Shown piece after piece: positions 2,669-61,020 of a stretch of 64,000 bases of DNA. Numbering within the stretch: the first letter of the stretch is position 1; each line of letters starts with the position of its first letter. Origin of the DNA: a virus; UHGV virus genome UHGV-1351279. One strand, 5' to 3'. A program made the position numbers and the translations under genes. A model generated the notes under the pieces. That model ran no database searches. It saw only the letters and a list, made by a program, of their open reading frames with translations, and was not told the origin of the DNA.

Positions 2669-2669
2669 T

Positions 2670-21603: not shown

Positions 21604-24600
21604 ATGTCTTGTAAAAATACAGTCTTAAACAGTAATAGTAGAAATGTAGTGATGAAAGGTCTTTATGAAAAAGACCTTATCACTGCCTATAAGAATGTTG
21701 GTAATACAACAATAATACAAGTATCTAACATTAAGGATTTCAATAAAAGGAATCAACTTTTAATAGATAAAATACAGGAATTACAACCTCAATTTTTATC
21801 TTCTTTTGGAAGTATGTATAACACCACTCCAACAGAATTATTCTTTGATAAAGTAAATGGTAGTCAAGAACAATTTGCTATAAAGAATTATATGTTTGAA
21901 AGGCTATCTAACTTTAAAATGGTAGATTTTAATAAGCTACAAGAAACTTTAGATAGCTTAGGTAAAATAGCTGTACAAGTATCAAATGGTAATATAGAAA
22001 TTAGAAACCATAAAATACACGGTTTTACTAAAGAAGAAGTAGATGCTATAGTAAAAAAGTATAATACACTTTCTTCTGAAAAACAACAATACATAAAAGA
22101 TGAAATTAGAAATAGTAGAAATATTGTAGATAAAGTAGCTTCAAAACTTTATGATGCTTATGAAGATAGACTTAACCTAATTACTGATATTGATTCAAAT
22201 TCAATGAGAATAGGTAATAAAAACTCTAATAATATTATTAAAGTAAAATCTAAGGAAGTTGAATCTAATAGAGAGCTTCAAGAAATAAAAGATGAAGTAG
22301 CTAATAATAAAGCTAAGGAACTTACAAGAAAAAACACTGAGGATAGCAATAAAAGGAGTAATGATTATAATACTGATGGTGATATATTGCCTTCAAATGA
22401 TAATTGGGACTCAAACTCTGACCCTAATATTACACCTCCTGTAACAGATAATTATACAGAATATACAAATTACTTAGATGCACTACTAAAAAGTGTACAG
22501 AAAAAGAAAGGTGAGTTAATAAAAGAACTCAAAAATCCAAAAAACAAGAATAAAACTAAGACTATTGATGACCTAAATAAGCTAATAACTGAAGAGGGTA
22601 AATTACAAGAGTACTATAATAATGCTATATCTGGTGAAAATGAGAAAAATGTAGAGACATTATTTAATGAATTAGATGATTTGTCTCATAAACTTGATGT
22701 AATAGATAGTGGTAGCATAAAGAATCTTGGAGATAGGGTTGATTTCCTTTTTGGATTTATTACAGGTACAAAATATGGAAGCAATGAAAATGTTGATTAT
22801 GCAATAAGTGAGAATCCTGAACTTAGGTCTAAGGTACTTTCTCTAATGCATAAATATAATAGTAAGCTCAATGAAATATCTAATAAAATCATTGAAGAAG
22901 ATGTTACTTATCAACATAATGTACTTAATAATATTGCATTTAAAAGAGCTGATGGTAAAATAGACAAAGATAAGGTAAATGATTTATTTAAAGTAAAAGA
23001 TGATATAAACTTTTTTGAGAAAGCCCTTTTAGGGGTATCTCAAGCAAGTACTAAAGAATCTATTACTCCTCAAATATTAAAGTCATACCTTGAAAAAAAT
23101 ATGTCTCATAGGACATCTGAAGCTATTGCTTATAAGGATAGATTATTAGCTGCTATTGAGAAATTAGAAGCAAAAGGTATTACTGATTTTAGCTTTATAT
23201 TTGAGAAATTTTTATCAGGAGCAAGAACAGGTAATATCATTAGTAAATATACTTCTGAGTATAGGAGAAAGCTTTATAAATACTTTAATATGGAAGTTGA
23301 GGGTAATGACTATGCTTCTTATTATAGTAAGAAAATACAATGGCTAAAGGCTAATGCTGATGTTATAGACTTTAGAAAAATAAAGGCTTTTAAAGACCTT
23401 TATGGTAAGAACTATCCTAATGAATTTATCTTCTCTGACCAGGAAATGGAAGAATATGAAAATAATCTTAGAAAACAACTTGGTAAAGTGTATGATAAAG
23501 AGATAGACAAAGTAAATAGTTGGATAGAAAATTATGAGCTTACTAAGCAAAATTATGAATCTAAATATGAAGCAGAGAGAAATAACCCTTTTGTATTTCT
23601 AAGGTCTTATTTTGGAGATTCTCCAACTACAGCAGCTGCATTTAATGGTACAGGAGGTATATCAAGTATATTTCCTAACCTTAATGATATTGTATTTGTA
23701 CCAAGAAAAACCTTTACTGAGGGCTATGACTTTAATGGAGAAGAAATAACCTCTGATACAGGCTATTATAATAAAGACTTTGATAGAATTGAACAGTCTG
23801 ATGAAATGTTTGAGTATTGGTCTGTATTAGAAGATATATATTCTCAATACATAAATCCTACCTATGACATATCAGGAATGAGCTTTGCTAAGATACAAAA
23901 GGAGTTTCTCGAAAAAGTAAGTGATGCAAAAGGTGCTTCTAAAGCAGGTACTCTAATATCTAAAGGTATACAAGCTTATAGAGAGTATTTCTATGAAGTA
24001 GGTGTAGGTAATAAGAAAGATAAAGGTATTGTAGAGAACTATTCTGATAAGACAAAACAAGAAATAAAGGCTCTATCATCAGCTCTAAAAGCTAAATCTG
24101 TTGATGAGCTTAAATCTATGGCAAAAGATTTAGGTCTTACTATACCTAATAACATAACACCAGAGCAATTAGTTCATGAGATTGCAAGTGAAATGACTTT
24201 AAGGAATTATTCTTCTGATATTAATAAGATAACAGGGGCTTTAATTGATATGGTAGCTTTACAAAAAGCCAGAGAAGATACTTTACCTATAGCTAATATC
24301 TTACTTGAGAAACATAAGAAAACTGTAGGAGAAAGTGAAAGGGAGAGAAAAAATAGTATTGAGAAATTAGAACACTATATCAATAAAGTAATTAAGAATG
24401 AGCATGAGCATGCAAGAGGTACAGAACAACTAATAGGTAAAGAGATTAAAACACCTGGTTGGATAGAGATGTTACTTGATAAATTAGGTGTTATAGGTTG
24501 GCTTAAAAATAAAGTAGAAAAGAATAGGTTCTTTTACCTTTATAGTGATTCAGAAAGACAATTATTAAAAGAACTCCAGAGTGCAAGAGAAAGAGGTCAT

Positions 24601-26616
24601 AACTCTAATATTAGTGATAGTTTCTATCAAGATGGTATGAGATATGAACTTATAGTGGATGAGCATGGGGGTACATATTTTGCAAGCTATAAAGATAAGC
24701 ACACAGGAGAAGATAAAATAATTGATATAACTCCTGAGCAATATGAAGAAGCTTATCAAAAGAATATAGAAAGTAAGATACAAAGTTTGGGTCTTGACTT
24801 AAATAGTGCTGGTATTATTCAAGGAATACTAAAAACTATCATTTTTAAAGGATTAGGACTTAACCCTATTGGAGGTATCAGAAACAGGATGGAAGGTAAA
24901 AATACCAACCTTATAATGGATATGACAGGGTATTACTGGACTAAAGGTAATATTAGACATGCTCATAATTTCTTAGCCTTTGCTAATATGTTGCATATTT
25001 TACCTGATAGGATTTCTCCTGAACACATGGGTAAATACAAACAACTAAAAATCTTTAGGTCTTTAGTAGAGAAGATGAGGATTGTTCAAGATAGAAAAAA
25101 CCCTTTAGAGAGAAATATTGAGCAGTCTAAGTTCTCTATGGAGAAATATACTAATGTTTTTTCTTGGGCTGTAGATAACCCTGAGTTTAAGAACCAGGGT
25201 TCTGTGGTTCTTGCTATACTAATGGATACTAAGATAGAGAACAATAAAGGGGAATTAGTACCTATATTTGATGGTTCTAAATTTACTGTATTTGAAGAAA
25301 CTAAAGATGGTTCCTTAAGATTAAAAGAAGAGTTTAGGTCCGAAGAGAATATAAGGAATTGGGAAAATATGGAGGTAGGATTTAATGAAGAGGATAATAA
25401 CCAATTCTTTCTAACAAGAAATAAAATGAAGACAGCCATATCAAGAACACAAGGTAACTATGATGATATGGATACTATTTGGGCTTCAAGAACTATATGG
25501 GGTCAAGTTCTAATGATGTTTAAAAAATGGATGCCAGAACACTTTATGCAGAGATTTGCATCAGGACAGAATTTTGACTTATTTACAGGAAAGAAACAAA
25601 TGATGGGTAGATACAGAGCTATGTGGAATAATAATCCTGCATTGGCTGTAACAGGACTTTCCTCTATATTAGTAGGATTAGGTTTAGGAGCTGGAGCTTT
25701 AACTGTAGGAGGTATTACAGGAGTTGTAGCTTTTAAGTTTATACATAATATGATGGGAGGAAATAAAGGTATCTTAGAAGAAGCTAATAATATAGGAGGA
25801 TTAGTAGCTTTTACTAAGTCAATACTTATTAGTACTCTTAATTACCCTTTAGAGCTTATCAATCTAAAGACAGGTATTCCAACAAAATATGATGGATATT
25901 CTAAATTAAATCTTACTGAAGAGGAAATAGGTACTTTAAGGTCTTTAGCTAAAGAAATAGCTGTAAAACTAACCTGGTTAAGTATAATGTTACTTGCTAA
26001 ATCTCTTACTTGGGATGATGATGATGATGATGACTCAGATAAAAGGAAGTTACATAATTTCTTAGATAATGAGCTTAATACAACTATTAATACATTACAA
26101 TCCTGGTCAGACCCAGGTGCTTTATATGATGATGCATCAAGAAGCTCTTTTCTTTTATATTGTGATAATGTAACAAAACTATTAAAGAGTATTATGTTAC
26201 TCAATGGAGGGGATGCTTCAAAATATGCTTTAAAGGTATCTCCTGTACCATCTTTCTTTACACACATGGTATCTAAAGATGGTGATTTACTAATGCCTTG
26301 GCAAAATGATTATGAATATGATAAAGGTAAAACTTATTGGGATGGATTTATAAAAGAAATAAAAGGTAGAGGACATGAAAAATGGTCTAAGAAAGAATAC
26401 AATAAAATAAGAAAAGAGAAAAAAGCTGAAATGTTAGAACAAGGTATGAGTGAAAAAGAGATTAAAGAAGCTCTTGGTACTAAACCAAAAGGAATGTCCT
26501 ATGTAGATGCTTTAGATTATATGGAAAATGGAGGATTACCTCCACAAGAACCTAAGAAAAAAGGTAGACCTAAAGGTAGTAAAAACAAGAAAAAAGAGGA
26601 TTCAGCTCAAAAGTAA
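21604..26616 (+). CDS. large hypothetical protein (1670 aa) with a glycine-zipper transmembrane segment; putative ejection or tape-measure-like internal protein
   Basis: Hydrophobic GxxxG-rich segment AVTGLSSILVGLGLGAGALTVGGITGVVAF at about nt 25636-25740. Also has a poly-Asp run, coiled-coil regions and a K-rich C-terminus. It is the last gene of the + operon and is followed by a terminator. Confidence 0.6.
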   Translation: MSCKNTVLNSNSRNVVMKGLYEKDLITAYKNVGNTTIIQVSNIKDFNKRNQLLIDKIQELQPQFLSSFGSMYNTTPTELFFDKVNGSQEQFAIKNYMFERLSNFKMVDFNKLQETLDSLGKIAVQVSNGNIEIRNHKIHGFTKEEVDAIVKKYNTLSSEKQQYIKDEIRNSRNIVDKVASKLYDAYEDRLNLITDIDSNSMRIGNKNSNNIIKVKSKEVESNRELQEIKDEVANNKAKELTRKNTEDSNKRSNDYNTDGDILPSNDNWDSNSDPNITPPVTDNYTEYTNYLDALLKSVQKKKGELIKELKNPKNKNKTKTIDDLNKLITEEGKLQEYYNNAISGENEKNVETLFNELDDLSHKLDVIDSGSIKNLGDRVDFLFGFITGTKYGSNENVDYAISENPELRSKVLSLMHKYNSKLNEISNKIIEEDVTYQHNVLNNIAFKRADGKIDKDKVNDLFKVKDDINFFEKALLGVSQASTKESITPQILKSYLEKNMSHRTSEAIAYKDRLLAAIEKLEAKGITDFSFIFEKFLSGARTGNIISKYTSEYRRKLYKYFNMEVEGNDYASYYSKKIQWLKANADVIDFRKIKAFKDLYGKNYPNEFIFSDQEMEEYENNLRKQLGKVYDKEIDKVNSWIENYELTKQNYESKYEAERNNPFVFLRSYFGDSPTTAAAFNGTGGISSIFPNLNDIVFVPRKTFTEGYDFNGEEITSDTGYYNKDFDRIEQSDEMFEYWSVLEDIYSQYINPTYDISGMSFAKIQKEFLEKVSDAKGASKAGTLISKGIQAYREYFYEVGVGNKKDKGIVENYSDKTKQEIKALSSALKAKSVDELKSMAKDLGLTIPNNITPEQLVHEIASEMTLRNYSSDINKITGALIDMVALQKAREDTLPIANILLEKHKKTVGESERERKNSIEKLEHYINKVIKNEHEHARGTEQLIGKEIKTPGWIEMLLDKLGVIGWLKNKVEKNRFFYLYSDSERQLLKELQSARERGHNSNISDSFYQDGMRYELIVDEHGGTYFASYKDKHTGEDKIIDITPEQYEEAYQKNIESKIQSLGLDLNSAGIIQGILKTIIFKGLGLNPIGGIRNRMEGKNTNLIMDMTGYYWTKGNIRHAHNFLAFANMLHILPDRISPEHMGKYKQLKIFRSLVEKMRIVQDRKNPLERNIEQSKFSMEKYTNVFSWAVDNPEFKNQGSVVLAILMDTKIENNKGELVPIFDGSKFTVFEETKDGSLRLKEEFRSEENIRNWENMEVGFNEEDNNQFFLTRNKMKTAISRTQGNYDDMDTIWASRTIWGQVLMMFKKWMPEHFMQRFASGQNFDLFTGKKQMMGRYRAMWNNNPALAVTGLSSILVGLGLGAGALTVGGITGVVAFKFIHNMMGGNKGILEEANNIGGLVAFTKSILISTLNYPLELINLKTGIPTKYDGYSKLNLTEEEIGTLRSLAKEIAVKLTWLSIMLLAKSLTWDDDDDDDSDKRKLHNFLDNELNTTINTLQSWSDPGALYDDASRSSFLLYCDNVTKLLKSIMLLNGGDASKYALKVSPVPSFFTHMVSKDGDLLMPWQNDYEYDKGKTYWDGFIKEIKGRGHEKWSKKEYNKIRKEKKAEMLEQGMSEKEIKEALGTKPKGMSYVDALDYMENGGLPPQEPKKKGRPKGSKNKKKEDSAQK
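26014..26034 (+). repeat. (GAT)6GAC trinucleotide microsatellite encoding poly-Asp (WDDDDDDDSD)
   Basis: Read directly from the sequence. Confidence 0.9.
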
Positions 26617-27772: not shown

Positions 27773-28540
27773 TTAATCTTCTTGTTCCATTAAAGGTAAT
27801 ATACCATTATCTTTTAGTTTATTGTACAGAAATAACCTACCCTTTTGAGTCCATTTTGTATTAAGTACATAGGTTGTAGAAGAATCATCAGAAAGTACTG
27901 TTTCACTTTTAGTATAACCACTCCTTGCATAAGGAGCATAAGGAAGCCAAGTATTGCCTTGTTTATACTGAATACCTATTTCATTGAGCTTTTTATTAAG
28001 CTCTTGAGCAGTCATTCCATAATCTTTAGCAATCTCTCTTACAGTGAGACAATTCTTTGTTCTAAGTATCTCATCACAGTAATCTGCTTTAGGCTGTAGC
28101 TCTTCAATGAGAAGTGTTTGTTGCCTTGTTTTCTCTTCAAGAAGATAGTTCTTTTCAACTTCAGCTGCATAAGCTCTAAGAGCTTCAGGGAGTGTTTTAG
28201 GTACTAAGTTATAATAGCCTTCTTTTCTAATGGTTGGCAATACTTCCTCAACAACCCAATCTTGAAACTTCAAAGCACTATCTAATTGTGACCTCATTAT
28301 AAGTCTATAAAGGTTGGCTTCATTGATAAAATTTAGTTCATTACTACCAATTCCATCAGAATTTGTGACTCTCTGTTTCACCGTACCGTCTGATTTACAA
28401 TGAGTTGTAACAGCTTCACCTGGTCTTTTATAGCCTAAAGCTCTGGCTACATCTACACCAGCAAAATAAGGATTATTATTGTCATCAACAATAACTCTTA
28501 CCTGACCAAAGTCAGGATTTTGGAAAATTTCAATTTTGTT
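27773..28540 (-). CDS. Bro-N / KilA-C domain protein (antirepressor-like)
   Basis: Bro-N signature FQNPDFGQVRVIVDDNNNPYFAGVDVARALGYKRPGEAV. KilA-C-like segment LTVREIAKDYGMTAQELNKKLNEIGI. Start is taken as MNKIEIF at 28540 because the ORF-track start at 28597 would run through the terminator hairpin at 28575-28603. Confidence 0.6.
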   Translation of the reverse strand, partial: NKIEIFQNPDFGQVRVIVDDNNNPYFAGVDVARALGYKRPGEAVTTHCKSDGTVKQRVTNSDGIGSNELNFINEANLYRLIMRSQLDSALKFQDWVVEEVLPTIRKEGYYNLVPKTLPEALRAYAAEVEKNYLLEEKTRQQTLLIEELQPKADYCDEILRTKNCLTVREIAKDYGMTAQELNKKLNEIGIQYKQGNTWLPYAPYARSGYTKSETVLSDDSSTTYVLNTKWTQKGRLFLYNKLKDNGILPLMEQED

Positions 28541-28568
28541 CATATAAATATTAATTAAGTTTATAAAT

Positions 28569-28603
28569 AAAAAACCTTGTGTGGTTAGGAAGTCCACACA
28601 AGG
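28569..28603 (-). terminator. intrinsic terminator on the - strand
   Basis: Perfect 10-bp stem ccttgtgtgg / ccacacaagg with a 9-nt loop. On the - strand it is followed by TTTTTTATTTAT. Confidence 0.7.
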
Positions 28604-31507: not shown

Positions 31508-32290
31508 TTAATTTCCTAAAATAACAGGAGTTTTACCATCTGTAATTATTACTTTATTACTTGTTGTTCTAAGCATTTCAATATATTGTTGCATTAGAAT
31601 TTCCTTTGTAAGGCCTAAAGATTGAACTTTATTGGTTTCAGCATCAATCTTGGCTTTCTCAAGTAACATTTTAGAAGTTTCTAATTCATTCTTAACTCTA
31701 TTGGCTTCTTGAATTGCTTTATTTCTGTTTTCAATAGCTACAAGCATTGAGGAAGGAGGTCTTAGTCCTGAAGTAAGAGTAGTTAATTTAAAATATTTAT
31801 TCTCAAACTCTTCTTTAAGTCTTTTATTTACAGATTCTTCAAAAGAAGCCATATTATTCATAAGACTATCAGTTGTATATCTTCTGGCTTCCTCTCTATA
31901 AGCATCTGTAACCCTTTTATTGAGAATATTTTTCTCAACTAAGTCAAAGAATGAATCAGGATTAGAAATGTCATAATTCTTGTAAGAGAATACAATCTCA
32001 GGGCCTTTACCTCTAATAGGAACATAAGTATATACAGGGTCTACTGTAAATACACCTGCATCTTTTGCAGTGATTTCTACTTTATCAGGGTCTCCTGATT
32101 GTTCCCACATAGGAACTTGATACAATTCTGAGCCTGGTCCTAAGATACCTTGCGCACCTGTTACTACTTTGAAGGAATTAATCCCATTCCTTCCATACTC
32201 TGTCATTAGAACCCCTTCATAATTAGGTTCTGGTCTGTTACAAGAAACTAAAGCTGTAACGAGACTTACAATTAAAAACACTTTTCTCAT
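31508..32290 (-). CDS. SPFH/band-7-domain lipoprotein
   Basis: Lipoprotein signal MRKVFLIVSLVTALVSC (lipobox LVSC). C-terminal SPFH-like stretch AIENRNKAIQEANRVKNELETSKMLLEKAKIDAETNKV...KVIITDGKTPVILGN. Start is taken at 32290 rather than 32317. Confidence 0.5.
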   Translation of the reverse strand: MRKVFLIVSLVTALVSCNRPEPNYEGVLMTEYGRNGINSFKVVTGAQGILGPGSELYQVPMWEQSGDPDKVEITAKDAGVFTVDPVYTYVPIRGKGPEIVFSYKNYDISNPDSFFDLVEKNILNKRVTDAYREEARRYTTDSLMNNMASFEESVNKRLKEEFENKYFKLTTLTSGLRPPSSMLVAIENRNKAIQEANRVKNELETSKMLLEKAKIDAETNKVQSLGLTKEILMQQYIEMLRTTSNKVIITDGKTPVILGN

Positions 32291-32291
32291 A

Positions 32292-32465
32292 TTATTTTGA
32301 TTTGAAAAATTTCTCAAAAGGGAAAAATATTATAAATACTATACTTACGATAAGCCCTATAAACCACAAATAAGGAGTATCACTCCTAAACAAATACATT
32401 ATAGTTATTATTAGAAATACTATAATTAAAATGAATAAGATAATTTTTAGTATTAATTTTCTCAT
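32292..32465 (-). CDS. unannotated small membrane protein (57 aa, two TM helices): MRKLILKIILFILIIVFLIITIMYLFRSDTPYLWFIGLIVSIVFIIFFPFEKFFKSK
   Basis: Hand-translated from the sequence. It is coupled by TAATATG junctions to MazG upstream and to the lipoprotein downstream. It is below the ORF-track size cutoff. Confidence 0.4.
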   Translation of the reverse strand: MRKLILKIILFILIIVFLIITIMYLFRSDTPYLWFIGLIVSIVFIIFFPFEKFFKSK

Positions 32466-38002: not shown

Positions 38003-38388
38003 TTTTCTATTTTACTAATTAATAATTTAAAGTCTTCAAAGGTCATACTTACAATTGTATCAAATTGTGTTCTTCTTTTACCTTGTCCAACCTCCTTTTT
38101 GTGTATAAGGATATTAGGTAAAAAGTATTCTCTTGAGCCTTCAGGAAATATTTCCCTGACTCTATCATATACATATCTAATCTCCTTAGAAGCATTTAAG
38201 CCTTTCTGCTTACCTGCTTTTATCTGAATATTCATAGGTACAAAGAGAAGGTCAATACCTGCACCATCATGCATTTTTGAACCTTCTCTTGATGTTTTAC
38301 AATGTGTAAATCCTAATTCTCTGAATGCTGAAGCAAACTCTCTTTCAGCATTACTACCTTTTCTTTTATTTGTTGCTCCTTTTGTCAT
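37993..38388 (-). CDS. Hjc-like (archaeal-type PD-(D/E)XK) Holliday-junction resolvase
   Basis: KRKGSNAEREFASAFRELGF...EGSKMHDGAGIDLLFVP.NIQIKAGK aligns with Hjc RKGAQAERELIKLLEKHGF...DLVAG...IEVK. The ExK glutamate appears as Gln (QIK). Confidence 0.45.
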   Translation of the reverse strand: MTKGATNKRKGSNAEREFASAFRELGFTHCKTSREGSKMHDGAGIDLLFVPMNIQIKAGKQKGLNASKEIRYVYDRVREIFPEGSREYFLPNILIHKKEVGQGKRRTQFDTIVSMTFEDFKLLISKIEKWD

Positions 38389-39125
38389 AATGTACTAAAA
38401 ATATCTTCTACAAGTTTATCTTCAATATAGCTAAAATATTTTTCAACTTCTTCTAAGCTATTCATTTCAGGCAATAATTTTACAGTCTTAAATATTTTAG
38501 AGCCTAAATTAGTTGTTTCTATAATATCTATATTAAACACTCTAACAAAGTGTAAATAATAAGTGTCAAATTTCTTTCTCCATGTATTGTATTTATCATC
38601 TGTAAGAAACTTTCTATCTATATAAAGAGTTAGATTATTCTCTAAGTTCTTATCTACAAAATCTAATTTCTCCTCTGAAGATTTCAAACTACAAAAAGCT
38701 ATAAAGAAATGATTAGGAATACATAGAGATACTAAAAGTTCATTTGTATCTAAATCCCAAAGAGACCCTTGTGCATTGAATAAATTTACTACATTATCAC
38801 CAGATTTACTTCTCATAAATGAAAAGCTTAATCTTTGTTTTTTCATGTCTGTAAAAAAGTTATTATAAGACTTTTCAAATTGATGGTCATTTATATAGCT
38901 TTTATTCATCTTGTAAGAATAATAGATACTCTTTTCAGGACTTGACACACCTTCTATAAAGTTATCATATAGAAATAAACTGTTGGCAGGTACAATCTTA
39001 TTTTCTATAAATAAACAAATATCTTTCTCTATGTAAGAACTATTACTTATATCCTTTTTTAGATAAATTGAATTTGAAAGACCACTAAAATATTGGAACA
39101 ACAAATTGTTTAATTCTCTATTCAT
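38385..39125 (-). CDS. hypothetical protein (246 aa) immediately downstream of the E1-like gene
   Basis: ORF overlapping the E1-like gene by 8 nt. No motif recognised. Confidence 0.45.
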   Translation of the reverse strand: MNRELNNLLFQYFSGLSNSIYLKKDISNSSYIEKDICLFIENKIVPANSLFLYDNFIEGVSSPEKSIYYSYKMNKSYINDHQFEKSYNNFFTDMKKQRLSFSFMRSKSGDNVVNLFNAQGSLWDLDTNELLVSLCIPNHFFIAFCSLKSSEEKLDFVDKNLENNLTLYIDRKFLTDDKYNTWRKKFDTYYLHFVRVFNIDIIETTNLGSKIFKTVKLLPEMNSLEEVEKYFSYIEDKLVEDIFSTL

Positions 39126-39813
39126 TTATCACAGTATTCATTGGTAATATATAATCCCATCTAAAAGGAACTTCTCTATCATCTTCACCTGTTACACAAT
39201 TGGATAGGTGATTAGTAAAGAATCCTACAGCATGAGAAGAAGCCATACATGAAATATGTGTTGTTGATTTTAAAGTACATACTTCATCAGGTATCTTATC
39301 ATCACTAAAAAGACTCTTTTTATAATCTTCTATCTTATCTGGTGTAACACAAAAGATTTGCATGTTCTCAAAATTAAGCCTTGTATCTATAAAGATTGGT
39401 ACTTTATGTTTGTCTTTTTCATTGTAGTTATTTTCAACATATTTGCACCAATTATTAAAGAATATCTCTCTTGCTTTCATATTATCAAAGCAAGAAAACA
39501 TAAATTTATCAGCATAACTATTTTGGTCATAGGGGTCTTTAGATACATTTATACTTACTAATGCAAAATCTTGTATTCTTCTTCTTAAAGCATCCACTTT
39601 ATAGCTACCTACATCATTATAACCAAAAAATTGTCCAGCTAAATTATGTTCTTCAATTTTGTCAAAATCATAAACAAAAGGCTTAAAGTTCATTCTTGCT
39701 AATAGCAAAGAGGTGAAGGAACCTAAAGAACCTGCACCACCTACTATAACATTTCTAACTTCAGAGCTGAACCATACAGCCCCTTTAAATCTACTTGTTG
39801 TTATTTCGTTCAT
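39118..39813 (-). CDS. ThiF/MoeB/E1-like adenylyltransferase domain protein
   Basis: Rossmann loop VIVGGAGSLGS, DFDKIEEHNLAGQ (the D-x-D...N-L-x-R/G-Q box), YKVDALRRRI, and DNMKAR. The start is 1 nt after the JAB gene stop. Confidence 0.65.
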   Translation of the reverse strand: MNEITTSRFKGAVWFSSEVRNVIVGGAGSLGSFTSLLLARMNFKPFVYDFDKIEEHNLAGQFFGYNDVGSYKVDALRRRIQDFALVSINVSKDPYDQNSYADKFMFSCFDNMKAREIFFNNWCKYVENNYNEKDKHKVPIFIDTRLNFENMQIFCVTPDKIEDYKKSLFSDDKIPDEVCTLKSTTHISCMASSHAVGFFTNHLSNCVTGEDDREVPFRWDYILPMNTVINE

Positions 39814-39814
39814 A

Positions 39815-40954
39815 CTAAATTTTATTAATCATTTTCTGTATTGCTTCTACAAGTACTTCAATATACTTATTATACTTGCTTGGTTTTACAGTAAGGAAAT
39901 CTTCATACTCTTCAAGTAAAGCTTCAAGAACTGCTTTAAAGCCTTCATCACTTTTGATATTAGGAAAATATTCATCATAAGTAGCTTCAAAATTGTCATA
40001 GAATGTATCTTGTAATATCTTTGGAGCTATCTCATAATCAATATAATACTCTAATACATCCATAAAGTCTTTAAAAGTAGCTCTTTCAGAAAAACTTATA
40101 AGCACATTTACTGAAAACTCAGGAATAGTATTAGTAATAAAATAATCTTTCTCAACGCTTCTTTTTAGGTCTTTTTTTTTAGAGTAGATGGTACTTGGAA
40201 TTACAGGAACAAATTTTCCTGTGCTTGGAGTAACACCATAACTTTTAGAATAACTACTTACAGTACCATTACTATTATAACCAACACCATAAGTATTGTT
40301 ATTATAATTATTACCATAGGTAAAGTTACTCCCATAATTATACACAGGTACTTTCATAATGTCTTCTACAGCTTGAATGAAATCTTCTCTTAGATAAGGT
40401 CTTTCAATCTCAATATCACAGTCATAAATAACTAAGTACTGTTGGTTTTCATTATCTACACTGACACTATATTCTTGACCAAACTCATCAAGAGCTTTTG
40501 CTACTGTTTGAGAAGAGTTTGTATTGGCCACAAAACAAAGCTTAGCTACCATTTGTTCTCTGTTATTTACAATAAGAGATAAATAAATGTTATTCTTAGG
40601 AGCATTAATCTCCAAATCTCTTATATCTGTACCAGAAAAGAATGAGTCCATGTTGTTATGGCTGTGAGTTGCTCCATATAAACAATCTTCAAACTGTTCA
40701 TTTTTATTAATGAAATTCACATACCTTTCATCTACTTCATATTCTGTATAAGTAGCATTACCTTTATCTAAAGGAAGAATAGCTCTTGTAATAATTCTCA
40801 AGTTCTCAGGATTTTTTATAGAACCTTCTAAATCATAGAAAAGTAATCCCGACCATTCTACACTATTTATTCTTTTACAGAGATATGTTATCTCGCTGTA
40901 AACCTCTTTTGTAATTGTTAATTTTACTTTTGTAGATTGATTCAAATGCTTCAT
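39815..40954 (-). CDS. JAB/MPN (JAMM) metalloprotease-domain protein with an N/Y/G-rich C-terminal extension
   Basis: Complete JAMM motif: E in VEWSGLL, then HSHNNMDSFFSGTD (HxHx7Sx2D). The C-terminal 200 aa are low-complexity (YNYGSNFTYGNNYNNNTYGVGYNSNG). Confidence 0.65.
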   Translation of the reverse strand: MKHLNQSTKVKLTITKEVYSEITYLCKRINSVEWSGLLFYDLEGSIKNPENLRIITRAILPLDKGNATYTEYEVDERYVNFINKNEQFEDCLYGATHSHNNMDSFFSGTDIRDLEINAPKNNIYLSLIVNNREQMVAKLCFVANTNSSQTVAKALDEFGQEYSVSVDNENQQYLVIYDCDIEIERPYLREDFIQAVEDIMKVPVYNYGSNFTYGNNYNNNTYGVGYNSNGTVSSYSKSYGVTPSTGKFVPVIPSTIYSKKKDLKRSVEKDYFITNTIPEFSVNVLISFSERATFKDFMDVLEYYIDYEIAPKILQDTFYDNFEATYDEYFPNIKSDEGFKAVLEALLEEYEDFLTVKPSKYNKYIEVLVEAIQKMINKI

Positions 40955-42122
40955 TTTTTTGTATTTTTTCTAATCTTCTTGTTAAACATCTTTTTATATA
41001 TTCTCTTGTCTCTTTCATCAATACCAATTTTGGTGTTATAGTATCCTTTTCATCAGGAATCTCTGTAAGAACTAATGGATACTCTTTCTGTTTATAAACT
41101 AATGGTATAATATTAAGAGAACTATCAGGTAAATAGTTTTTAAATGATACATTAAAGGTATTGTTTAAATGTAATTCGTAAACATTACCTTCTAATCTAT
41201 AACATAAATAATACTTTTTGTAATTACCTAAATGCTTATTTAAAGTTTCAACTGCATATTTTTCAAATTCTTCATCAAAATCTATTTCTAATTTACTATT
41301 AGATAGAGATATATTCACATGTGCATTACTTTTCTTATAATCTTTAAATAAAGTTTTTAGGAAATCATTATCTGATACAGCATAGTTAAAACTTGCTCTA
41401 CTATAATTACTATTTGTAGCAGGTAATCTTATATTAGAGAACTTATGATAAGGCATACCAGATAAAGATTCATAATAAACAATAGTAAACATTTGGACAA
41501 AGAAGTTTGTCCAAAAATTCTCATTGTTATTTTCAGGTTCTACTGACTCTAATATAATTGTTGACAAATTACTTGTACCTAAACAGAATTTACTGAAGAA
41601 TATAGATGGTAAAGCCCTATTTTGTCTTTCACAGTAATTATGATAGGGTAAGTTTTCATAATGACTATGTCCATAAGAATAGTATTCTGCAAATGTCATT
41701 GTAGTTCTACCCCCTAAAATAGTAGTACAATAAGGTATCTCATTAGTATTTGACATTTCATATAAAACAAACAAGTCTTTTATACCATCATACTTCTCAC
41801 CATTACTATTCTCTATAGTTACTTGAGGAAATCTTGTAATAAATCCTCTAAAGTATACTCTTATCTTATTACCATTTACTAACTTATAGAAAAATAAAAA
41901 ATCCCAATTATCACCATAAATCTCATTTAGAGACTTTATTATTGGTTCTAATTTCTCTAAATAACCAATAGATATGTTTCTTTCAGGCCTATCACCATAA
42001 AACAGCTTATTTTTTTTAGATTTATCTTTTAAGTATTCATAAGGATTTTCTATTTTAAGCCTAAAATAATTAGTAAGAGATGTATCAAACAAGTCACTTT
42101 TATTTCTTTTTTCTCTGTACAT
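40875..42122 (-). CDS. hypothetical protein (415 aa) upstream of JAB, overlapping it by 80 nt
   Basis: ORF whose start abuts a terminator-like hairpin. Contains YHNYCERQNRALPSIFFSKFCLGTSNL, which is only weakly reminiscent of an E2 HPN...C motif. Confidence 0.45.
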   Translation of the reverse strand: MYREKRNKSDLFDTSLTNYFRLKIENPYEYLKDKSKKNKLFYGDRPERNISIGYLEKLEPIIKSLNEIYGDNWDFLFFYKLVNGNKIRVYFRGFITRFPQVTIENSNGEKYDGIKDLFVLYEMSNTNEIPYCTTILGGRTTMTFAEYYSYGHSHYENLPYHNYCERQNRALPSIFFSKFCLGTSNLSTIILESVEPENNNENFWTNFFVQMFTIVYYESLSGMPYHKFSNIRLPATNSNYSRASFNYAVSDNDFLKTLFKDYKKSNAHVNISLSNSKLEIDFDEEFEKYAVETLNKHLGNYKKYYLCYRLEGNVYELHLNNTFNVSFKNYLPDSSLNIIPLVYKQKEYPLVLTEIPDEKDTITPKLVLMKETREYIKRCLTRRLEKIQKNEAFESIYKSKINNYKRGLQRDNISL

Positions 42123-42132
42123 AACTTAAAAT

Positions 42133-42167
42133 AAAAAAGAAAGAAAGTGAGGTTTCCCCCACTTTCT
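42133..42167 (-). terminator. intrinsic terminator (hairpin agaaagtgagg / ccccactttct) followed on the - strand by TTCTTTTTTATTTT
   Basis: Lies between the end of the 178-aa gene (42197) and the start of the 415-aa gene (42122). Confidence 0.55.
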
Positions 42168-42196: not shown

Positions 42197-42733
42197 TTAC
42201 AATTTCTTCAAAAGCTCCAAATCATCTAAATCTTCTTTAGAAAGTCCATTAGAAACATTTACAGGCTGAGCCACTTTTATTTCTAATGATGCAGCATCTT
42301 TTGAAGGAATACCTCTTAGAAGAGTAATGATAGTGTTTAGTTTACCATTAAGGGTACTAAGAGTTTCTTCTACATCTGAAAATCTGTTGTGAAGAGATTC
42401 AAATTCTTCATCAAAGTCAATACCTTGCTTACCATCTTTCTGGGTAATGAAAAGCTTGAAATCTCCAGAAGGAATTTCAGCATTTGGAGAAGTTACTACT
42501 ACACCTTCTCCCAAAAGAACACGCATTTCATCAAATACTTGCTCCATGCTTGAACCTACATTGGCATCTCTTACAAGTGCAGATAACTCAGAGAACTTGT
42601 TATCTTTTAATTGATAAATAACTTCATCACCTTCTATACGAGTTGATGATGTTGCATTAGGGTTTACTTCAATTTTGTACTTCCCTCTGATACCTCTACC
42701 TGCGAGGATTTTTACTGTTTGTACTGTTGTCAT
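42197..42733 (-). CDS. hypothetical protein
   Basis: 178-aa ORF. Confidence 0.45.
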   Translation of the reverse strand: MTTVQTVKILAGRGIRGKYKIEVNPNATSSTRIEGDEVIYQLKDNKFSELSALVRDANVGSSMEQVFDEMRVLLGEGVVVTSPNAEIPSGDFKLFITQKDGKQGIDFDEEFESLHNRFSDVEETLSTLNGKLNTIITLLRGIPSKDAASLEIKVAQPVNVSNGLSKEDLDDLELLKKL

Positions 42734-44084: not shown

Positions 44085-44819
44085 TTAGAATGGAAAATCT
44101 CCATCTAAATTTTCTCCTGTACTTTCTTCAATTGCTTCAGGAGCAGCACTTTGCTCTACTTCATCATCAGAGAGAACTAATTGATTAAATAAAGAAGTAT
44201 TGAATAGATACTTACCATTGCTTTCAGACCTTCTGATAGGGTGCTTTTTGCCATCTTCAGTAACATACTCAAGTACATACTTTTCCTTGTCAAAGTGTTC
44301 TTTAAAATCACCCTCTACGTGAGGTACAAAAGTTTTACCCCAATAAGCTGTACCAAATATTGGAACTTCAAGGAAAGCTTGTTTATATCCTTGAGGTACT
44401 TTCTTTTGATATTGCATAAAAAGGTCTACCTTTACATTACCTACTTTACCTGTTTTATTGATAGCATTAGCTATAACAGTAATATAGCTTTTCCAGGAGT
44501 TAATAGGTTGTTTAAGAAGTTCTTTTAGGGTTTCTCTATCCATAAAACATTCTGCAAGTTCACAAATTTGCATTTGAGTTACTTCAGCTTGTTTCTGGTA
44601 CATTTCTTTACTGTTCTCAAAACTTGTGTTTTCTTTAGGTTCAAAGAAAGTAAAGAAACCATCTTTTTCTGCACCATCTAATCTATAGTTTACAGATAGT
44701 ACATCAAGACCATTTTTTGTTTGTGTTACTTCTACTTTAGTAAAAGTAGCATTTTGGTTGAGACCAAATTTACCAAAGCTTCCTGAGAACTCTTTGGCTT
44801 CTTGAAATCCAAAATTCAT
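44085..44819 (-). CDS. ssb: single-stranded DNA-binding protein with an acidic C-terminal tail
   Basis: C-terminus DDEVEQSAAPEAIEESTGENLDGDFPF matches the SSB-type acidic tail that ends in DFPF/DIPF. It lies in the replication module. Confidence 0.5.
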   Translation of the reverse strand: MNFGFQEAKEFSGSFGKFGLNQNATFTKVEVTQTKNGLDVLSVNYRLDGAEKDGFFTFFEPKENTSFENSKEMYQKQAEVTQMQICELAECFMDRETLKELLKQPINSWKSYITVIANAINKTGKVGNVKVDLFMQYQKKVPQGYKQAFLEVPIFGTAYWGKTFVPHVEGDFKEHFDKEKYVLEYVTEDGKKHPIRRSESNGKYLFNTSLFNQLVLSDDEVEQSAAPEAIEESTGENLDGDFPF

Positions 44820-50894: not shown

Positions 50895-51160
50895 GATTTG
50901 ATTTTTTTAATTCTTTTTAATCTCTTTTTAGCTTTCAATCTATTTAATCCATTACCTATTGCTTCTATAGCAAAGAAAACAGAGATAAAAGCGGATAATA
51001 CATTTACCATAGGTGTAAAGCTTGCTAATACTATAATACCTAAAACCCACGGTTGGTCTAACTCTCTTATTTTCCTAAACCTTAAAATAAAGAATATTAG
51101 TCCACAAATTAAAGATATACAAAAAGCTGGTACATAAGTCATACTGAAAAATTCTTTCAT
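50891..51160 (-). CDS. small membrane protein (2-3 TM)
   Basis: Hydrophobic 89-aa ORF with a 4-nt overlap. Confidence 0.4.
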   Translation of the reverse strand: MKEFFSMTYVPAFCISLICGLIFFILRFRKIRELDQPWVLGIIVLASFTPMVNVLSAFISVFFAIEAIGNGLNRLKAKKRLKRIKKIKS

Positions 51161-52023
51161 TCTTTATTGTATTTTAATAGTTCTTTACTTGATTCTAAAC
51201 TATCATAAGTTTCAAAAAGACAAGGGTCTGAAAGGCCATAAGGATTTGTTTCTATTATGGAAATATCTAAGAATCTCTTATTAATTCCAACTTTATAGTG
51301 AGTTCCTCCTGAAACATATAAATCAGCTACAAAATTGTCTACTTTAATATTTGGTATACAAATATTGTCCATAAAGTACGTAACACCCCTCTTAATTTCA
51401 TTTAAATATTTTTTATTATAAGAGAAGGTTTCCTTATAAAATTGCTGGCTTATACCAATAACTTTTCTATCTTTTACAAACACCCTCCATTCACAATGCC
51501 TATCCAAATTAGCAAATGGTCTAATGTATAGAATAATTTCATCTTTTAATTTAGTTAGAAACACTAAGTCCTCAAAAGTTCTCATTGAACCTAATAGAGC
51601 ATCTATAATTTCTCCTGCATTATGAAGAGATTTATAATCCTCTTTAGGCCAATTCTGAATATAATCCTTTGGGCTTCTGCTTTCTAACTTAACAAATAGT
51701 TCTCTTATCCTATTAGCTCCAAAAAAGAATTGATTTTCTTTTTTATTGAGTTGTCTCTGTAAGTAATTTACAAGAATGTGTTCTGCTTTCTTATCATTGT
51801 CAAGGCATGGTCTAATCATTTCAGTAGGTATTTTTATCTCTTTTATTGGAGGAGAATATGAGAATAAGTCTTTACCCCAATCAGAGAATTTTACCCCATT
51901 TAAATTATTATACCAATCTTGCGCAACTTCTACAGGATTTCTTCTTGGTGAATCTTCTAATGCATTTTTTATTACTTCTATATTTGCATCTATAAGTAAT
52001 TCTGTTAATTCTGCTTTTGTCAT
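51157..52023 (-). CDS. ATP-grasp fold enzyme (candidate)
   Basis: EWRVFVKDRKVIGISQQ and FVADLYVSGGTHYKVGINKRFLDISIIETNP resemble the ATP-grasp strands (E.RvfV ... hhEhN). Confidence 0.4.
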   Translation of the reverse strand: MTKAELTELLIDANIEVIKNALEDSPRRNPVEVAQDWYNNLNGVKFSDWGKDLFSYSPPIKEIKIPTEMIRPCLDNDKKAEHILVNYLQRQLNKKENQFFFGANRIRELFVKLESRSPKDYIQNWPKEDYKSLHNAGEIIDALLGSMRTFEDLVFLTKLKDEIILYIRPFANLDRHCEWRVFVKDRKVIGISQQFYKETFSYNKKYLNEIKRGVTYFMDNICIPNIKVDNFVADLYVSGGTHYKVGINKRFLDISIIETNPYGLSDPCLFETYDSLESSKELLKYNKE

Positions 52024-60438: not shown

Positions 60439-61020
60439 CTATTCTTTTAAACCTTGTTCAATAATATTCTCCATCATATTTGAGTTTATAGTTCTTGTAC
60501 CATCAGGGTTATATTTAATACACAATCTCAAATCTTTTAGTTTACTCCATTTACCTCTTGCAAATAAGTTTGGGTCTACTAAATAAACAGATTTTGATAT
60601 TGGTATTAATATATTCTCTTTCTTTAGCTTAGATATAGCAACATCAATTGTTTCTATTTTTAATCCTGTGTCCTTAGACATAAGAATTTTTGTGTCTTTT
60701 ACTGCTATAAACTTATTATCATACCCCATTCTAAGAACTATTGAATATAGTACCAAAGAAACATTTTTCTCTAATGAGAATATTCTTTTTATATCACTTA
60801 AATATAATTTTAGAAAGTCAGGCTCTGTTGATACAATTGCTGTTTTAAAGTTTTTTACTTTTAAAACTTCTCCTGTATCATTATTGATTTCAATGGTTTC
60901 TTCTTCATAAGTTACCTTTTTCACTTTTTCTTGCTTAGGTTTATTCAACCTATTTACTTTTGTTACTTTCATTTCTAATAGCTTTTCTAATTCCCTGCAA
61001 AGGTATGTAATATTTTCCAC
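60439..61020 (-). CDS. hypothetical protein, candidate DNA-binding regulator or initiator next to the half-site array
   Basis: 193-aa ORF immediately downstream of the operator-like array. No firm motif. Confidence 0.35.
   Translation of the reverse strand: MENITYLCRELEKLLEMKVTKVNRLNKPKQEKVKKVTYEEETIEINNDTGEVLKVKNFKTAIVSTEPDFLKLYLSDIKRIFSLEKNVSLVLYSIVLRMGYDNKFIAVKDTKILMSKDTGLKIETIDVAISKLKKENILIPISKSVYLVDPNLFARGKWSKLKDLRLCIKYNPDGTRTINSNMMENIIEQGLKE

What the first reader, a model, noticed from the sequence alone, without database searches (positions are those of the whole stretch)
38385..42122. Translationally coupled E1-like (ThiF) and JAB/MPN genes inside a phage recombination operon: candidate ubiquitin-like conjugation/deconjugation module
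The 231-aa protein at 39118-39813 carries the full adenylating E1/ThiF signature (GGAGSLGS; DFDKIEEHNLAGQ; YKVDALRRR; DNMKAR). The gene immediately upstream, starting 1 nt after it, is a 379-aa protein with a complete JAMM motif (E...HSHNNMDSFFSGTD) and an unusual N/Y/G-rich 200-aa tail. They lie between an unknown 415-aa protein, which overlaps the JAB gene by 80 nt, and an unknown 246-aa protein. The run continues without a break into an Hjc-like resolvase and a PD-(D/E)XK nuclease. E1+JAB pairs are the minimal core of prokaryotic Ub-like systems such as CBASS Cap2/Cap3 and Bil. In a lytic-phage replication and recombination module this would be a phage-side system of unknown target: counter-defence, deconjugation of host Ubl marks, or modification of a replication protein. 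No Ubl ending in Gly-Gly and no clear E2 was found, so the partner genes are the open question.
Basis: partly seen in the sequence, partly recalled or inferred. Interest (0 to 1): 0.8.

Follow-up and report, generated by a model that had tools for sequence, protein, structure and literature searches.

The report
Phage-encoded ubiquitin-like conjugation gene cassette
A crAss-like bacteriophage carries its own ubiquitin-like protein, activating enzyme (E1) and trimming protease (JAB/JAMM), plus a probable transfer enzyme (E2), inside its DNA-replication genes; such kits were known so far from bacterial anti-phage defence, not from phages.

Summary
All four ORFs, the E1/ThiF motifs, the complete JAMM motif and the tight gene packing are at the stated coordinates.

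- **Possible E2.** The 415-aa protein sits in the E2 slot of the Ubl-E2-JAB-E1 gene order. It has an invariant Cys180. A low-confidence model retrieves UBC/UEV/RWD folds weakly. This assignment is unproven.
- **Regulation.** A terminator hairpin separates the Ubl gene from the enzyme genes in 19 of 21 related loci.
- **Distribution.** The p415-JAB-E1 core is syntenic in crAss001, FpV4 and 35 metagenomic phage loci. The E1 clade gave one small hit in 185,579 cellular genomes. No paper in the library searched describes it; databases call the E1 a "thiamine biosynthesis protein".

Best reading: a phage-side Ubl conjugation pathway whose target is unknown. This is a new variant of a known kind.

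The parts
42197..42733 (-). Ubl precursor gene (178 aa). The beta-grasp ubiquitin-like domain is residues 1-104 (nt 42422-42733) and ends at invariant Gly104. A helical, acidic tail follows at residues 105-178 (nt 42200-42421).
42132..42167 (-). Intrinsic-terminator-like hairpin (11-bp stem, 5 G-C pairs, then TTCTTTTTT) lying between the Ubl gene and the enzyme genes.
   Evidence: Found by the terminator scan and read directly in the sequence. An equivalent G+C-rich hairpin plus T-run sits at the same position in 19 of 21 divergent related loci, although the sequences differ.
40875..42122 (-). 415-aa protein of an unannotated phage family in the 'E2 slot'. The conserved core is about residues 55-230, with Y150-x-H152-S153-H154, C180-x-G182 and E218-S219-x-x-G222-x-P224. 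It is a candidate divergent E2-like enzyme.
39815..40954 (-). JAB/JAMM metallopeptidase (379 aa). The catalytic domain is about residues 1-200, the low-complexity N/Y/G linker about 205-265, and the conserved helical C-terminal domain about 270-379.
   Evidence: The JAMM residues E33, H97, H99, S107 and D110 are invariant in 28 homologues. PADLOC JAB gives 5.5e-6. The family profile hits Rpn11, JAMM1, AMSH and CSN5 weakly. The domain layout is conserved across the family.
39118..39813 (-). Minimal single-domain E1-like adenylating enzyme (231 aa) with an invariant Cys179.
   Evidence: Pfam ThiF 6.5e-12. Profile against PDB: UBA5 at 9e-12 is the best hit. hhalign to UBA5 gives 97.5% probability. 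Invariant residues in 31 homologues are R8, G26, G28, D49, D51, N57, Q61, K72, D110, R115, D143, R145, C179 and T184.
38385..39125 (-). 246-aa protein in a positionally conserved but fast-evolving slot directly after the E1 gene. Its role is unknown; it could be a substrate, an adaptor or a specificity factor.
   Evidence: An ORF of 190-360 aa abuts the E1 gene in each of the 32 loci where the slot could be read in full (one further locus, L032, ends 107 aa into it), but these fall into several sequence families that are barely or not detectably related. Only 7 close homologues were found, none with a Pfam domain. There were no family hits.

Best explanation
The cassette is a phage-encoded ubiquitin-like protein conjugation pathway with five genes in the order Ubl precursor, E2-like protein, JAB peptidase, E1, variable partner.

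**Proposed mechanism.**
1. The 178-aa protein is made in excess, because a terminator follows its gene. This step is inferred.
2. The JAB peptidase cuts it directly after Gly104. This frees a beta-grasp Ubl of about 104 residues and a helical, acidic tail peptide. The step is inferred from the invariant Gly, the fused-versus-split tails, and the proven precedents BilC-BilA and BubCD-BubAB.
3. The 231-aa E1 is probably a homodimer like UBA5, ThiF and BubD. It adenylates Gly104 and takes the Ubl onto Cys179. The adenylation motifs are shown in the sequence; the chemistry is inferred.
4. The Ubl passes to Cys180 of the 415-aa protein, which acts as a divergent E2 and selects the target through its C-terminal half. 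This is the weakest step.
5. The Ubl ends up on lysines of an unknown target. The JAB peptidase could also reverse the modification.

**Likely targets.** The cassette sits between the primase and the resolvase/exonuclease genes and is absent from cellular genomes. The targets are therefore most likely replication or recombination proteins, or host factors met early in infection, possibly host defence components.
For: - **E1.** Membership of the E1-like superfamily is established, and Cys179 is invariant.
- **JAB.** The complete JAMM catalytic set is invariant.
- **Ubl.** The fold of the 178-aa protein is ubiquitin-like. The domain-ending Gly is the only invariant residue. Some homologues stop 1-5 residues after it. 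In those phages the tail appears as a separate small ORF.
- **Gene order.** Ubl, p415, JAB, E1 matches BilA-B-C-D and BubA-B-C-D as described in PMC11601596.
- **Synteny.** The order holds in 36 loci, including the isolated phages crAss001 and FpV4.
- **Terminator.** A hairpin follows the Ubl gene in 19 of 21 loci.
- **C-terminus.** A single Gly preceded by Ser, Ala or Gln resembles UFM1 and ATG8-type modifiers, whose E1 (UBA5) is the best match here.
- **No sulfur enzymes.** No sulfurtransferase was found among the window ORFs scanned.
Against: - No biochemical data exist for any member of the cassette.
- Pfam Prok-E2 and UQ_con gave nothing. PDB sequence profiles gave nothing. hhalign against canonical UBC and against a Cap2 E2 domain found nothing.
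- The E1 lacks the Arg of the NxxRQ ATP-binding motif; the family has NLAGQ or NxxGQ.
- The C-terminal half of the E1 aligns to no solved E1. The equivalence of Cys179 to a catalytic Cys is therefore inferred from spacing alone.
- No target is known.
- Cleavage at Gly104 has not been shown.
Confidence: 0.6

Rival explanations
1. The cassette is a sulfur-carrier system. The E1 adenylates the Ubl C-terminal Gly, which is then converted to a thiocarboxylate. It donates sulfur for a thio-modification of phage DNA, nucleotides, tRNA or a cofactor. The JAB peptidase only unmasks the Gly, as Mec+ does for CysO and QbsD for QbsE. The 415-aa protein is the sulfur-inserting enzyme.
For: The E1 is a minimal single-domain ThiF/MoeB-sized enzyme, and the best NCBIfam hits, though far below their cut-offs, are ThiF models. 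The trio of Ubl, E1 and JAB is exactly the set used in the CysO and QbsE pathways (established knowledge). The cassette lies among nucleotide- and DNA-metabolism genes. The invariant His, Cys and Glu of the 415-aa protein would also suit a metal- or persulfide-using enzyme.
Against: - The C-terminus is a single Gly preceded by Ser, Ala or Gln, not the Gly-Gly typical of ThiS, MoaD, CysO and TtuB.
- The E1 has no CxxC zinc motifs and no rhodanese domain.
- No rhodanese, cysteine desulfurase or PP-loop enzyme was found among the window ORFs scanned.
- Tails of up to about 200 residues are unlike the 1-2-residue extensions of known carrier precursors.
- All ThiF and MoeB equivalog cut-offs are missed by a wide margin.
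Confidence: 0.15
2. Conjugation happens without an E2, as in archaeal SAMPylation (SAMP, UbaA, JAMM1) or Thermus TtuB. The E1 alone drives Ubl attachment. The 415-aa protein is not an enzyme of the cascade but the main substrate, a scaffold, or a second (cysteine) peptidase.
For: The Ubl, E1 and JAB are solidly identified, while every sequence-level test of the 415-aa protein against E2 families failed. A His...Cys pair 26 residues apart would also fit a His-Cys peptidase dyad. Bub operons also carry an extra protease, BubE.
Confidence: 0.15
3. There is no covalent modifier pathway. The beta-grasp domain is just an N-terminal domain of a replication accessory protein. The E1-like enzyme adenylates some other carboxylate, in the way MccB or PaaA act on peptides or TcdA acts on tRNA. 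The JAB peptidase has an unrelated substrate, for example removing host Ubl marks such as Bil or Cap2 conjugates as a counter-defence.
For: MccB, PaaA and TcdA score nearly as well as UBA5 against the E1 profile. The fused tail has its own conserved C-terminal acidic/hydrophobic motif. Bacterial Ubl defence systems that a phage JAB could oppose do exist.
Against: The five genes keep the same order in all loci, and the Ubl gene lies next to the enzyme genes. The only invariant Ubl residue is the domain-terminal Gly, which is hard to explain without C-terminal chemistry. Short forms end 1-5 residues after that Gly. No RiPP-type precursor or tRNA-modification partner was seen.
Confidence: 0.1

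Closest known systems
Bil system (BilA Ubl, BilB E2, BilC JAB, BilD E1), a bacterial anti-phage defence
   Different: - It is encoded by phages and is essentially absent from cellular genomes.
- The E1 is a single 231-aa adenylation domain, not the tandem IAD-AAD-CYS architecture of BilD.
- The E2-slot protein is 415 aa and has no detectable sequence similarity to any E2.
- The tail after the Gly is long.
- An extra variable gene follows the E1.
Type I Bub (6E/DUF6527) operons: BubAB (Ubl-E2 fusion), BubCD (JAB-E1 fusion), BubE
   Different: Bub works through Ser and Tyr oxyesters and lacks catalytic cysteines, whereas here Cys179 and Cys180 are invariant. The Ubl is fused to a helical tail, not to the E2, and a terminator separates it from the E2-slot gene. 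There is no DUF6527 protein. The context is a phage replication module, not a bacterial defence island.
Type II CBASS Cap2 (E2-E1 fusion) and Cap3 (JAB)
   Same: PADLOC E1-E2 (Cap2) models hit the E1 at 2.6e-9, and the PADLOC JAB (Cap3-type) model hits the JAB at 5.5e-6.
   Different: There is no CD-NTase and no effector. The E2 and E1 are not fused. A dedicated beta-grasp Ubl is present, instead of the CD-NTase C-terminus serving that role. hhalign of the 415-aa family against a Klebsiella Cap2 E2 domain found nothing.
UFM1-UBA5-UFC1 and archaeal SAMP-UbaA-JAMM1
   Same: UBA5 is the best solved relative of the E1. The modifier ends in a single Gly exposed by proteolysis, as in UFM1. The trio of minimal E1, Ubl and JAMM equals the SAMPylation set.
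   Different: These are cellular systems. UFM1 is processed by cysteine proteases, not by a JAMM peptidase. SAMPs end in Gly-Gly and double as sulfur carriers. Nothing comparable to the 415-aa family is known in them.
Lambda/T1 tail-assembly Ubl (TAPI) with JAB-NlpC/P60 (TAPK)
   Same: It is a phage-encoded beta-grasp protein with a conserved terminal Gly followed by a C-terminal extension, next to a JAB peptidase (PMC1779556).
   Different: That system has no E1, lies in the tail-assembly module, and is not thought to conjugate. The cassette here has an E1 and lies in the replication module.

Membership tests
E1-like / ThiF superfamily (PF00899) | Score above the Pfam gathering threshold, with a Rossmann GxGxxG nucleotide loop | tested here: met
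   45.6 bits against a cut-off of 28.1, E = 6.5e-12. G26 and G28 are invariant and G31 is conserved in 30 of 31 homologues.
E1-like / ThiF superfamily (PF00899) | ATP/Mg2+ ligands: the Asp of the DN motif, a conserved Lys, and the Arg of NxxRQ | tested here: inconclusive
   D110 and K72 are invariant, but the NxxRQ Arg is replaced (NLAGQ; a Gly aligns to the UBA5 Arg) in the whole family. Invariant R8, R40 or R145 might compensate; this was not tested.
Thioester-forming E1 (as opposed to an adenylase only) | A conserved Cys in or at the end of the crossover loop | tested here: inconclusive
   Cys179 is invariant in 31 homologues. It lies 69 residues after the Mg-Asp, against 67 in UBA5. The C-terminal half aligns to no solved E1, so the equivalence is inferred.
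ThiF/MoeB sulfur-carrier adenylyltransferases | NCBIfam equivalog cut-offs, two CxxC zinc motifs, and a Gly-Gly carrier protein | tested here: not met
   Best ThiF model scores 51.5 bits against a cut-off of 159, and MoeB 17 against 266. There are no conserved CxxC motifs. The modifier ends in a single Gly.
PRTRC system | The PRTRC_ThiF equivalog | tested here: not met
   TIGR03736 scores 29 bits against a cut-off of 144.75. The ParB-related and other PRTRC partners were not searched for.
JAB/JAMM (MPN+) metallopeptidase | The motif E ... HxH-x7-S-xx-D | tested here: met
   E33, H97, H99, S107 and D110 are invariant in 28 homologues. PADLOC JAB gives 5.5e-6.
JAB/JAMM (MPN+) metallopeptidase | The Pfam Prok-JAB gathering threshold | tested here: not met
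   15.7 bits against a cut-off of 25. The family profile hits Rpn11, JAMM1, AMSH and CSN5 only at E 0.017-0.4.
Ubiquitin-like modifier | A beta-grasp fold | tested here: met
Ubiquitin-like modifier | A conserved C-terminal Gly that is exposed for adenylation | tested here: inconclusive
   Gly104 is the only invariant column, and some homologues end 1-5 residues after it. Cleavage itself cannot be tested with these tools.
UBC / E2 (for the 415-aa protein) | The UBC fold | tested here: inconclusive
UBC / E2 (for the 415-aa protein) | Sequence or profile similarity to UQ_con, Prok-E2, the Cap2 E2 domain; the HPN motif | tested here: not met
   No Pfam hit for any of 20 members at E up to 10. hhalign against canonical UBC gave 0.4% probability and against a Cap2 E2 domain 0.1%. 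The motif is HSH, 26 residues before the Cys, not HPN.
UBC / E2 (for the 415-aa protein) | A conserved catalytic Cys after the beta-meander | tested here: met
   Cys180 is invariant in 20 and in 151 sequences. In the model it lies after the four-strand unit and before the long helix.
Bil system | [quoted passage not shown] | tested here: not met
   The E1 is a single domain of 231 aa. The cassette is phage-borne, and the E1 clade gave one 2.4-kb hit in 185,579 cellular genomes.
Type I Bub | Ubl-E2 and JAB-E1 fusions, no catalytic cysteines, DUF6527 BubE | tested here: not met
   The genes are separate. Cys179 and Cys180 are invariant. No DUF6527 hit was found. The features are taken from PMC11601596.

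The most novel reading that the evidence does not exclude
crAss-like and FpV4-like phages encode a complete Ubl conjugation cascade of their own that is specific to these viruses. It would comprise a precursor Ubl, a JAB maturase/deconjugase, a minimal E1, and a previously unrecognised E2 family of about 400 aa with thousands of members. During infection it would covalently tag replisome or host proteins, possibly host defence proteins. That would make it the first conjugating Ubl system of prokaryotic viruses and a mirror image of the bacterial Bil, Bub and CBASS systems.
Probability: 0.4. Interest if true: 0.9.

Novelty: new variant of a known kind. Interest (0 to 1): 0.8.

Why it matters
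Ubiquitin-like conjugation in prokaryotes has so far been shown as a bacterial weapon against phages (Bil, type II CBASS, probably Bub). Here the same machinery is a conserved part of the replication module of a large group of phages. That group includes cultured members of Crassvirales, the dominant phage order of the human gut (crAss001, DAC17), and phages of a fish pathogen (FpV4).

In databases the genes are labelled 'thiamine biosynthesis protein', 'metalloprotease' or 'hypothetical'.

If the pathway is active, it opens several questions:
- what a phage tags during infection;
- whether phage and host Ubl systems interfere with each other;
- whether the 415-aa family, with 2606 clusters and no annotation, is a new E2 class.

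Two cultured phage-host pairs exist, so the predictions can be tested directly.

Tried and rejected
- **p415 against known families.** Sequence and profile searches of the 415-aa family against Pfam, NCBIfam, PADLOC, PHROGs and PDB sequences gave nothing. hhalign against a Klebsiella plasmid Cap2 E2 domain also gave nothing. Membership of the E2 family by sequence is therefore rejected, and only fold-level hints remain.
- **p415 structure.** The AF2 model was poor, because the alignment I was allowed to use held only two subfamilies. Foldseek against BFVD returned only uncharacterised homologues. The afdb50 library was unavailable.
- **p415 alternatives considered.** A JAMM-like reading of its HSH motif was rejected because no S-xx-D follows at the right spacing. 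A caspase-like His-Cys dyad was judged less likely than UBC because the predicted strands are long antiparallel hairpins.
- **E1 C-terminal half.** Its profile found nothing in the PDB.
- **Ubl profile against PDB sequences.** Only chance hits, to haemagglutinin.
- **The 246-aa protein.** No family and only 7 close homologues. The same slot in other phages holds unrelated or barely related proteins.
- **Genome scan.** A scan with the p415 alignment was impossible because it has no conserved stretch. The E1 alignment was used instead.
- **Exact-sequence look-up of the window E1.** Not on record.
- **Literature searches.** Queries combining crAss, Crassvirales or crAss001 with ThiF, ubiquitin, JAB or gp76-79 found no relevant paper.

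Full report
**1. The observation**

The genes are tightly packed (coordinates):
- the 415-aa gene overlaps the JAB gene by 80 nt;
- one nucleotide separates the JAB stop from the E1 start;
- E1 and the 246-aa gene overlap by 8 nt;
- the 246-aa gene and the resolvase overlap by 4 nt;
- the resolvase and the exonuclease overlap by 10 nt.

The 231-aa protein passes the Pfam ThiF gathering threshold (45.6 against 28.1 bits, E = 6.5e-12). It also matches PADLOC E1-E2 (Cap2-type) models at 2.6e-9.

The 379-aa protein carries the canonical JAMM pattern E33 ... H97-x-H99-x7-S107-xx-D110. PADLOC JAB gives 5.5e-6. Pfam Prok-JAB stays below its threshold.

The long overlap is real. A gene caller's shorter 328-aa JAB in a near-identical contig would delete Glu33, which is invariant in the family.

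**2. What kind of genome this is**

The window has about 29% G+C. It carries giant plus-strand ORFs of 4508, 1800 and 1670 aa. The minus strand holds a replication module:
- family A DNA polymerase;
- DnaB-like, SNF2-type and SF1 helicases;
- primase;
- Sak4-like AAA_24 ATPase;
- exonuclease VIII-like PD-(D/E)XK nuclease;
- resolvase;
- dNMP kinase.

This is the architecture of crAss-like phages. IMG/VR contigs of 91-97 kb encode an E1 81-91% identical to the window's.

The E1 has 47% identical homologues in Flavobacterium psychrophilum phages of the FpV4 group. It has 32-37% identical homologues in cultured and uncultured Crassvirales such as crAss001, DAC17, the PhiCrAssBcn series and Kolpuevirus. 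There the gene is annotated 'thiamine biosynthesis protein'.

**3. Conserved synteny**

In FpV4 (gp53 to gp49) and crAss001 (gp79 to gp75) the same five genes lie in the same order between the primase and the resolvase/exonuclease genes.

In 35 further IMG/VR loci, JAB and E1 are always adjacent. An iterated HMM finds the 415-aa family immediately upstream of JAB in 36 of 36 loci.

**4. The missing Ubl**

The ORF immediately upstream of the 415-aa gene begins in nearly all loci with a domain of 75-105 residues. Its consensus ends in ...LP.G.F...L.P.K(V/I)K(S/A)G.

In alignments of 17 and of 40 homologues, the only invariant column is that terminal Gly, which is Gly104 of the window's 178-aa ORF at 42197-42733.

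After the Gly, some genes stop within 1-5 codons:
- ...KVKSGK*
- ...KVKSGTSI*
- ...KVKSGNKN*

Others continue into variable helical, acidic tails, giving ORFs of up to 289 aa. In phages with the short form, a separate ORF of 39-46 aa with the same helical, acidic character follows. The tail is therefore an independent module that is sometimes fused to the Ubl.

An AF2 model of the window protein is confident for residues 1-100 (pLDDT 80-92). Confidence collapses at residues 102-107, around Gly104. After that the model shows a long helix, a disordered stretch and a terminal helix.

This is the hallmark of a Ubl made as a precursor and matured by a peptidase. The same has been shown experimentally for BilA with BilC (PMC10557695) and for BubAB with BubCD (PMC11601596).

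**5. The E1**

Thirty-one family members share R8, W14, G26, G28, S32, R40, D49, D51, N57, Q61, K72, D110, N111, R115, D143, R145, E149, C179 and T184.

The family profile finds the following in the PDB:

| Hit | E-value |
|---|---|
| UBA5 (best) | 9e-12 |
| MccB | 5e-10 |
| ThiF | 2e-9 |
| PaaA, TcdA, MoeB, Uba1, NAE, SAE, Cap2 | weaker |

All NCBIfam ThiF, MoeB, MoeZ and PRTRC cut-offs are missed by a wide margin. The protein is therefore an E1-superfamily member of its own clade.

Two deviations stand out:
- The Arg of the NxxRQ phosphate-binding motif is a Gly, or another small residue, throughout the family.
- There are no CxxC zinc motifs.

Invariant Cys179 lies 69 residues after the Mg-binding Asp110. 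In UBA5 the catalytic Cys250 lies 67 residues after Asp183, and both cysteines are followed by a Thr-Thr a few residues later. This is an inference, because the C-terminal half aligns to no solved structure.

**6. The JAB peptidase**

E33, H97, H99, S107 and D110 are invariant in 28 homologues. The family profile hits Rpn11, JAMM1, AMSH-LP and CSN5 almost exclusively, although weakly at E 0.017-0.4.

The domain is present in all family members, which are 358-428 aa long.

It might dock the peptidase on the E1. The two are fused in BubCD. This was not tested.

**7. The 415-aa protein**

The family is large. It has 2606 representatives at 50% identity with E no greater than 1e-3, of which 1744 have E no greater than 1e-10. 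It has no annotation. Its members in the 90%-identity collection carry no Pfam domain and sit on contigs of up to about 95-120 kb.

H154, C180, G182, E218 and G222 are invariant in 20 diverse sequences. In 151 sequences, S153, S219, P224 and F254 are invariant as well.

Negative results:
- No Pfam, NCBIfam, PADLOC, PHROG or PDB sequence match exists.
- hhalign against canonical UBC and against a Cap2 E2 domain is negative.

The AF2 model is poor, with mean pLDDT 52.9, and the motif region is below 50. Its order of elements is:
- helix 59-69;
- four long antiparallel strands across 73-140;
- a short helix;
- the HSH loop;
- strand 175-178;
- Cys180;
- helices.

This is the order found in the UBC fold, although with a longer loop before the Cys.

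The gene also sits in the position of BilB and BubB in the A-B-C-D operon order.

I therefore rate 'divergent E2-like enzyme' as the best single guess, at about one in two. It is not established.

**8. The 246-aa slot**

An ORF of 190-360 aa abuts the E1 gene in every locus where the slot could be read in full. These ORFs fall into at least seven clusters. hhalign links the window's cluster only to two others, at 61-75% probability.

The window protein has only seven close homologues and no family hit. A slot that is conserved in position but evolves fast suggests a specificity factor, a substrate, or a protein that contacts the host.

**9. Regulation**

On the minus strand, between the Ubl gene and the 415-aa gene, lies an 11-bp, G+C-rich hairpin followed by a T-run, at 42167-42142 plus the tail.

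An equivalent hairpin plus T-run is present at the same place in 19 of 21 divergent loci, with different sequences. Where a small tail ORF exists, the hairpin follows that ORF.

I infer that the modifier is transcribed in excess over the enzymes.

**10. Distribution**

A scan of one genome for each of 185,579 bacterial and archaeal species used the family's most conserved E1 motif. It found a single 2.4-kb MAG contig. That scan rests on one motif pattern.

Plasmid hits to the E1 are distant and are mostly ThiF-family adenylyltransferases; the one Klebsiella hit opened was a type II CBASS Cap2, and two hits are PRTRC ThiF proteins.

The cassette therefore appears to be restricted to phages.

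**11. Mechanism and rivals**

The best-supported reading is a phage Ubl conjugation pathway:
1. JAB matures the precursor after Gly104.
2. The minimal E1 adenylates the Gly and carries the Ubl on Cys179.
3. The 415-aa protein receives it on Cys180 and passes it to targets.
4. JAB may also deconjugate.

What is shown is the domain identities, the invariant residues, the synteny and the terminator. What is inferred is cleavage, the thioesters, the E2 role and the targets.

The main rivals are these:
- **A sulfur-carrier pathway.** It is disfavoured by the single Gly, the absence of CxxC and rhodanese, and the absence of any sulfurtransferase among the scanned ORFs.
- **E2-independent conjugation of the SAMP type.** Here the 415-aa protein would be a substrate or a second peptidase.
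- **No modifier pathway at all.**

**12. Novelty**

Ubl-E1-E2-JAB operons are known in bacteria (PMC1779556, PMC10557695, PMC11601596). A Ubl-JAB pair without an E1 is known in lambda-like tail modules.

No paper in the searchable library links crAss-like phages or FpV4 to ThiF, E1, JAB or ubiquitin-like systems. Subscription-only literature could not be searched.

I class the cassette as a new variant of a known kind. It is phage-encoded, lies in the replication module, and has a single-domain Cys-bearing E1, a new E2-slot family, a Ubl-tail precursor and a variable fifth gene.

Noticed in passing
window 51157-52023 (-): A 288-aa protein matches Pfam D123 (the Cdc123-type ATP-grasp family) at 1.7e-15. 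This is a second candidate protein-modifying enzyme in the same replication module.
   Followed up: no
window 2670-16196, 16190-21592, 21604-26616 (+): Three giant ORFs of 4508, 1800 and 1670 aa lie on the plus strand. The coding strand and the GC skew both switch near 26 kb. This is the typical crAss-like genome layout.
   Followed up: partly
L042 (Xanthomonas jumbo phage PhiXhv-12, PV764601.1) 760-4636: A distant member of the same E1 family (profile E = 1.7e-32) lies next to topoisomerase genes. It is preceded by an 892-aa Cys-rich protein and by a 140-aa ORF that ends exactly in ...KASGG. This may be a related phage Ubl-E1 pair without a JAB. The Ubl fold of the 140-aa ORF was not tested.
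   Followed up: partly
L009 about 4290-4425, L024 about 4735-4875, L033 about 5310-5430: In phages whose Ubl gene stops 1-5 codons after the conserved Gly, a separate ORF of 39-46 aa follows before the terminator. It encodes a helical, acidic peptide resembling the fused tail.
   Followed up: partly
window 44085-44819 (-); L001 7666-8754: The 244-aa ORF ends in ...DGDFPF, an SSB-like acidic tip. The FpV4 protein in the 246-aa slot (gp49) ends in ...EEPQVEDLPF, a similar tip. This may hint that the slot protein docks on SSB-binding partners.
   Followed up: no
L002 6545-7000 (crAss001 gp76): The crAss001 E1 carries an extra acidic N-terminal extension of about 150 aa that is absent from the window and FpV4 proteins.
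   Followed up: no
L039 6325-7311: In a near-identical public contig the JAB gene was called as 328 aa, starting after the upstream stop. That call removes the catalytic Glu33. It is an example of mis-annotation caused by the 80-nt gene overlap.
   Followed up: yes
window 27773-28597, 31508-32317, 60439-61020 (-): The replication-side gene block also holds a Bro-N/KilAC antirepressor-like protein, an SPFH/Band 7 protein and a RepL-like protein.
   Followed up: no
window 42197-42421 (-), tail of the Ubl precursor: The tails of otherwise divergent Ubl precursors end in a shared acidic/hydrophobic motif, for example EDLDDLELLKKL or EEELEDLENLRSEGLA. This may be a docking peptide. Its function is unknown.
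   Followed up: no
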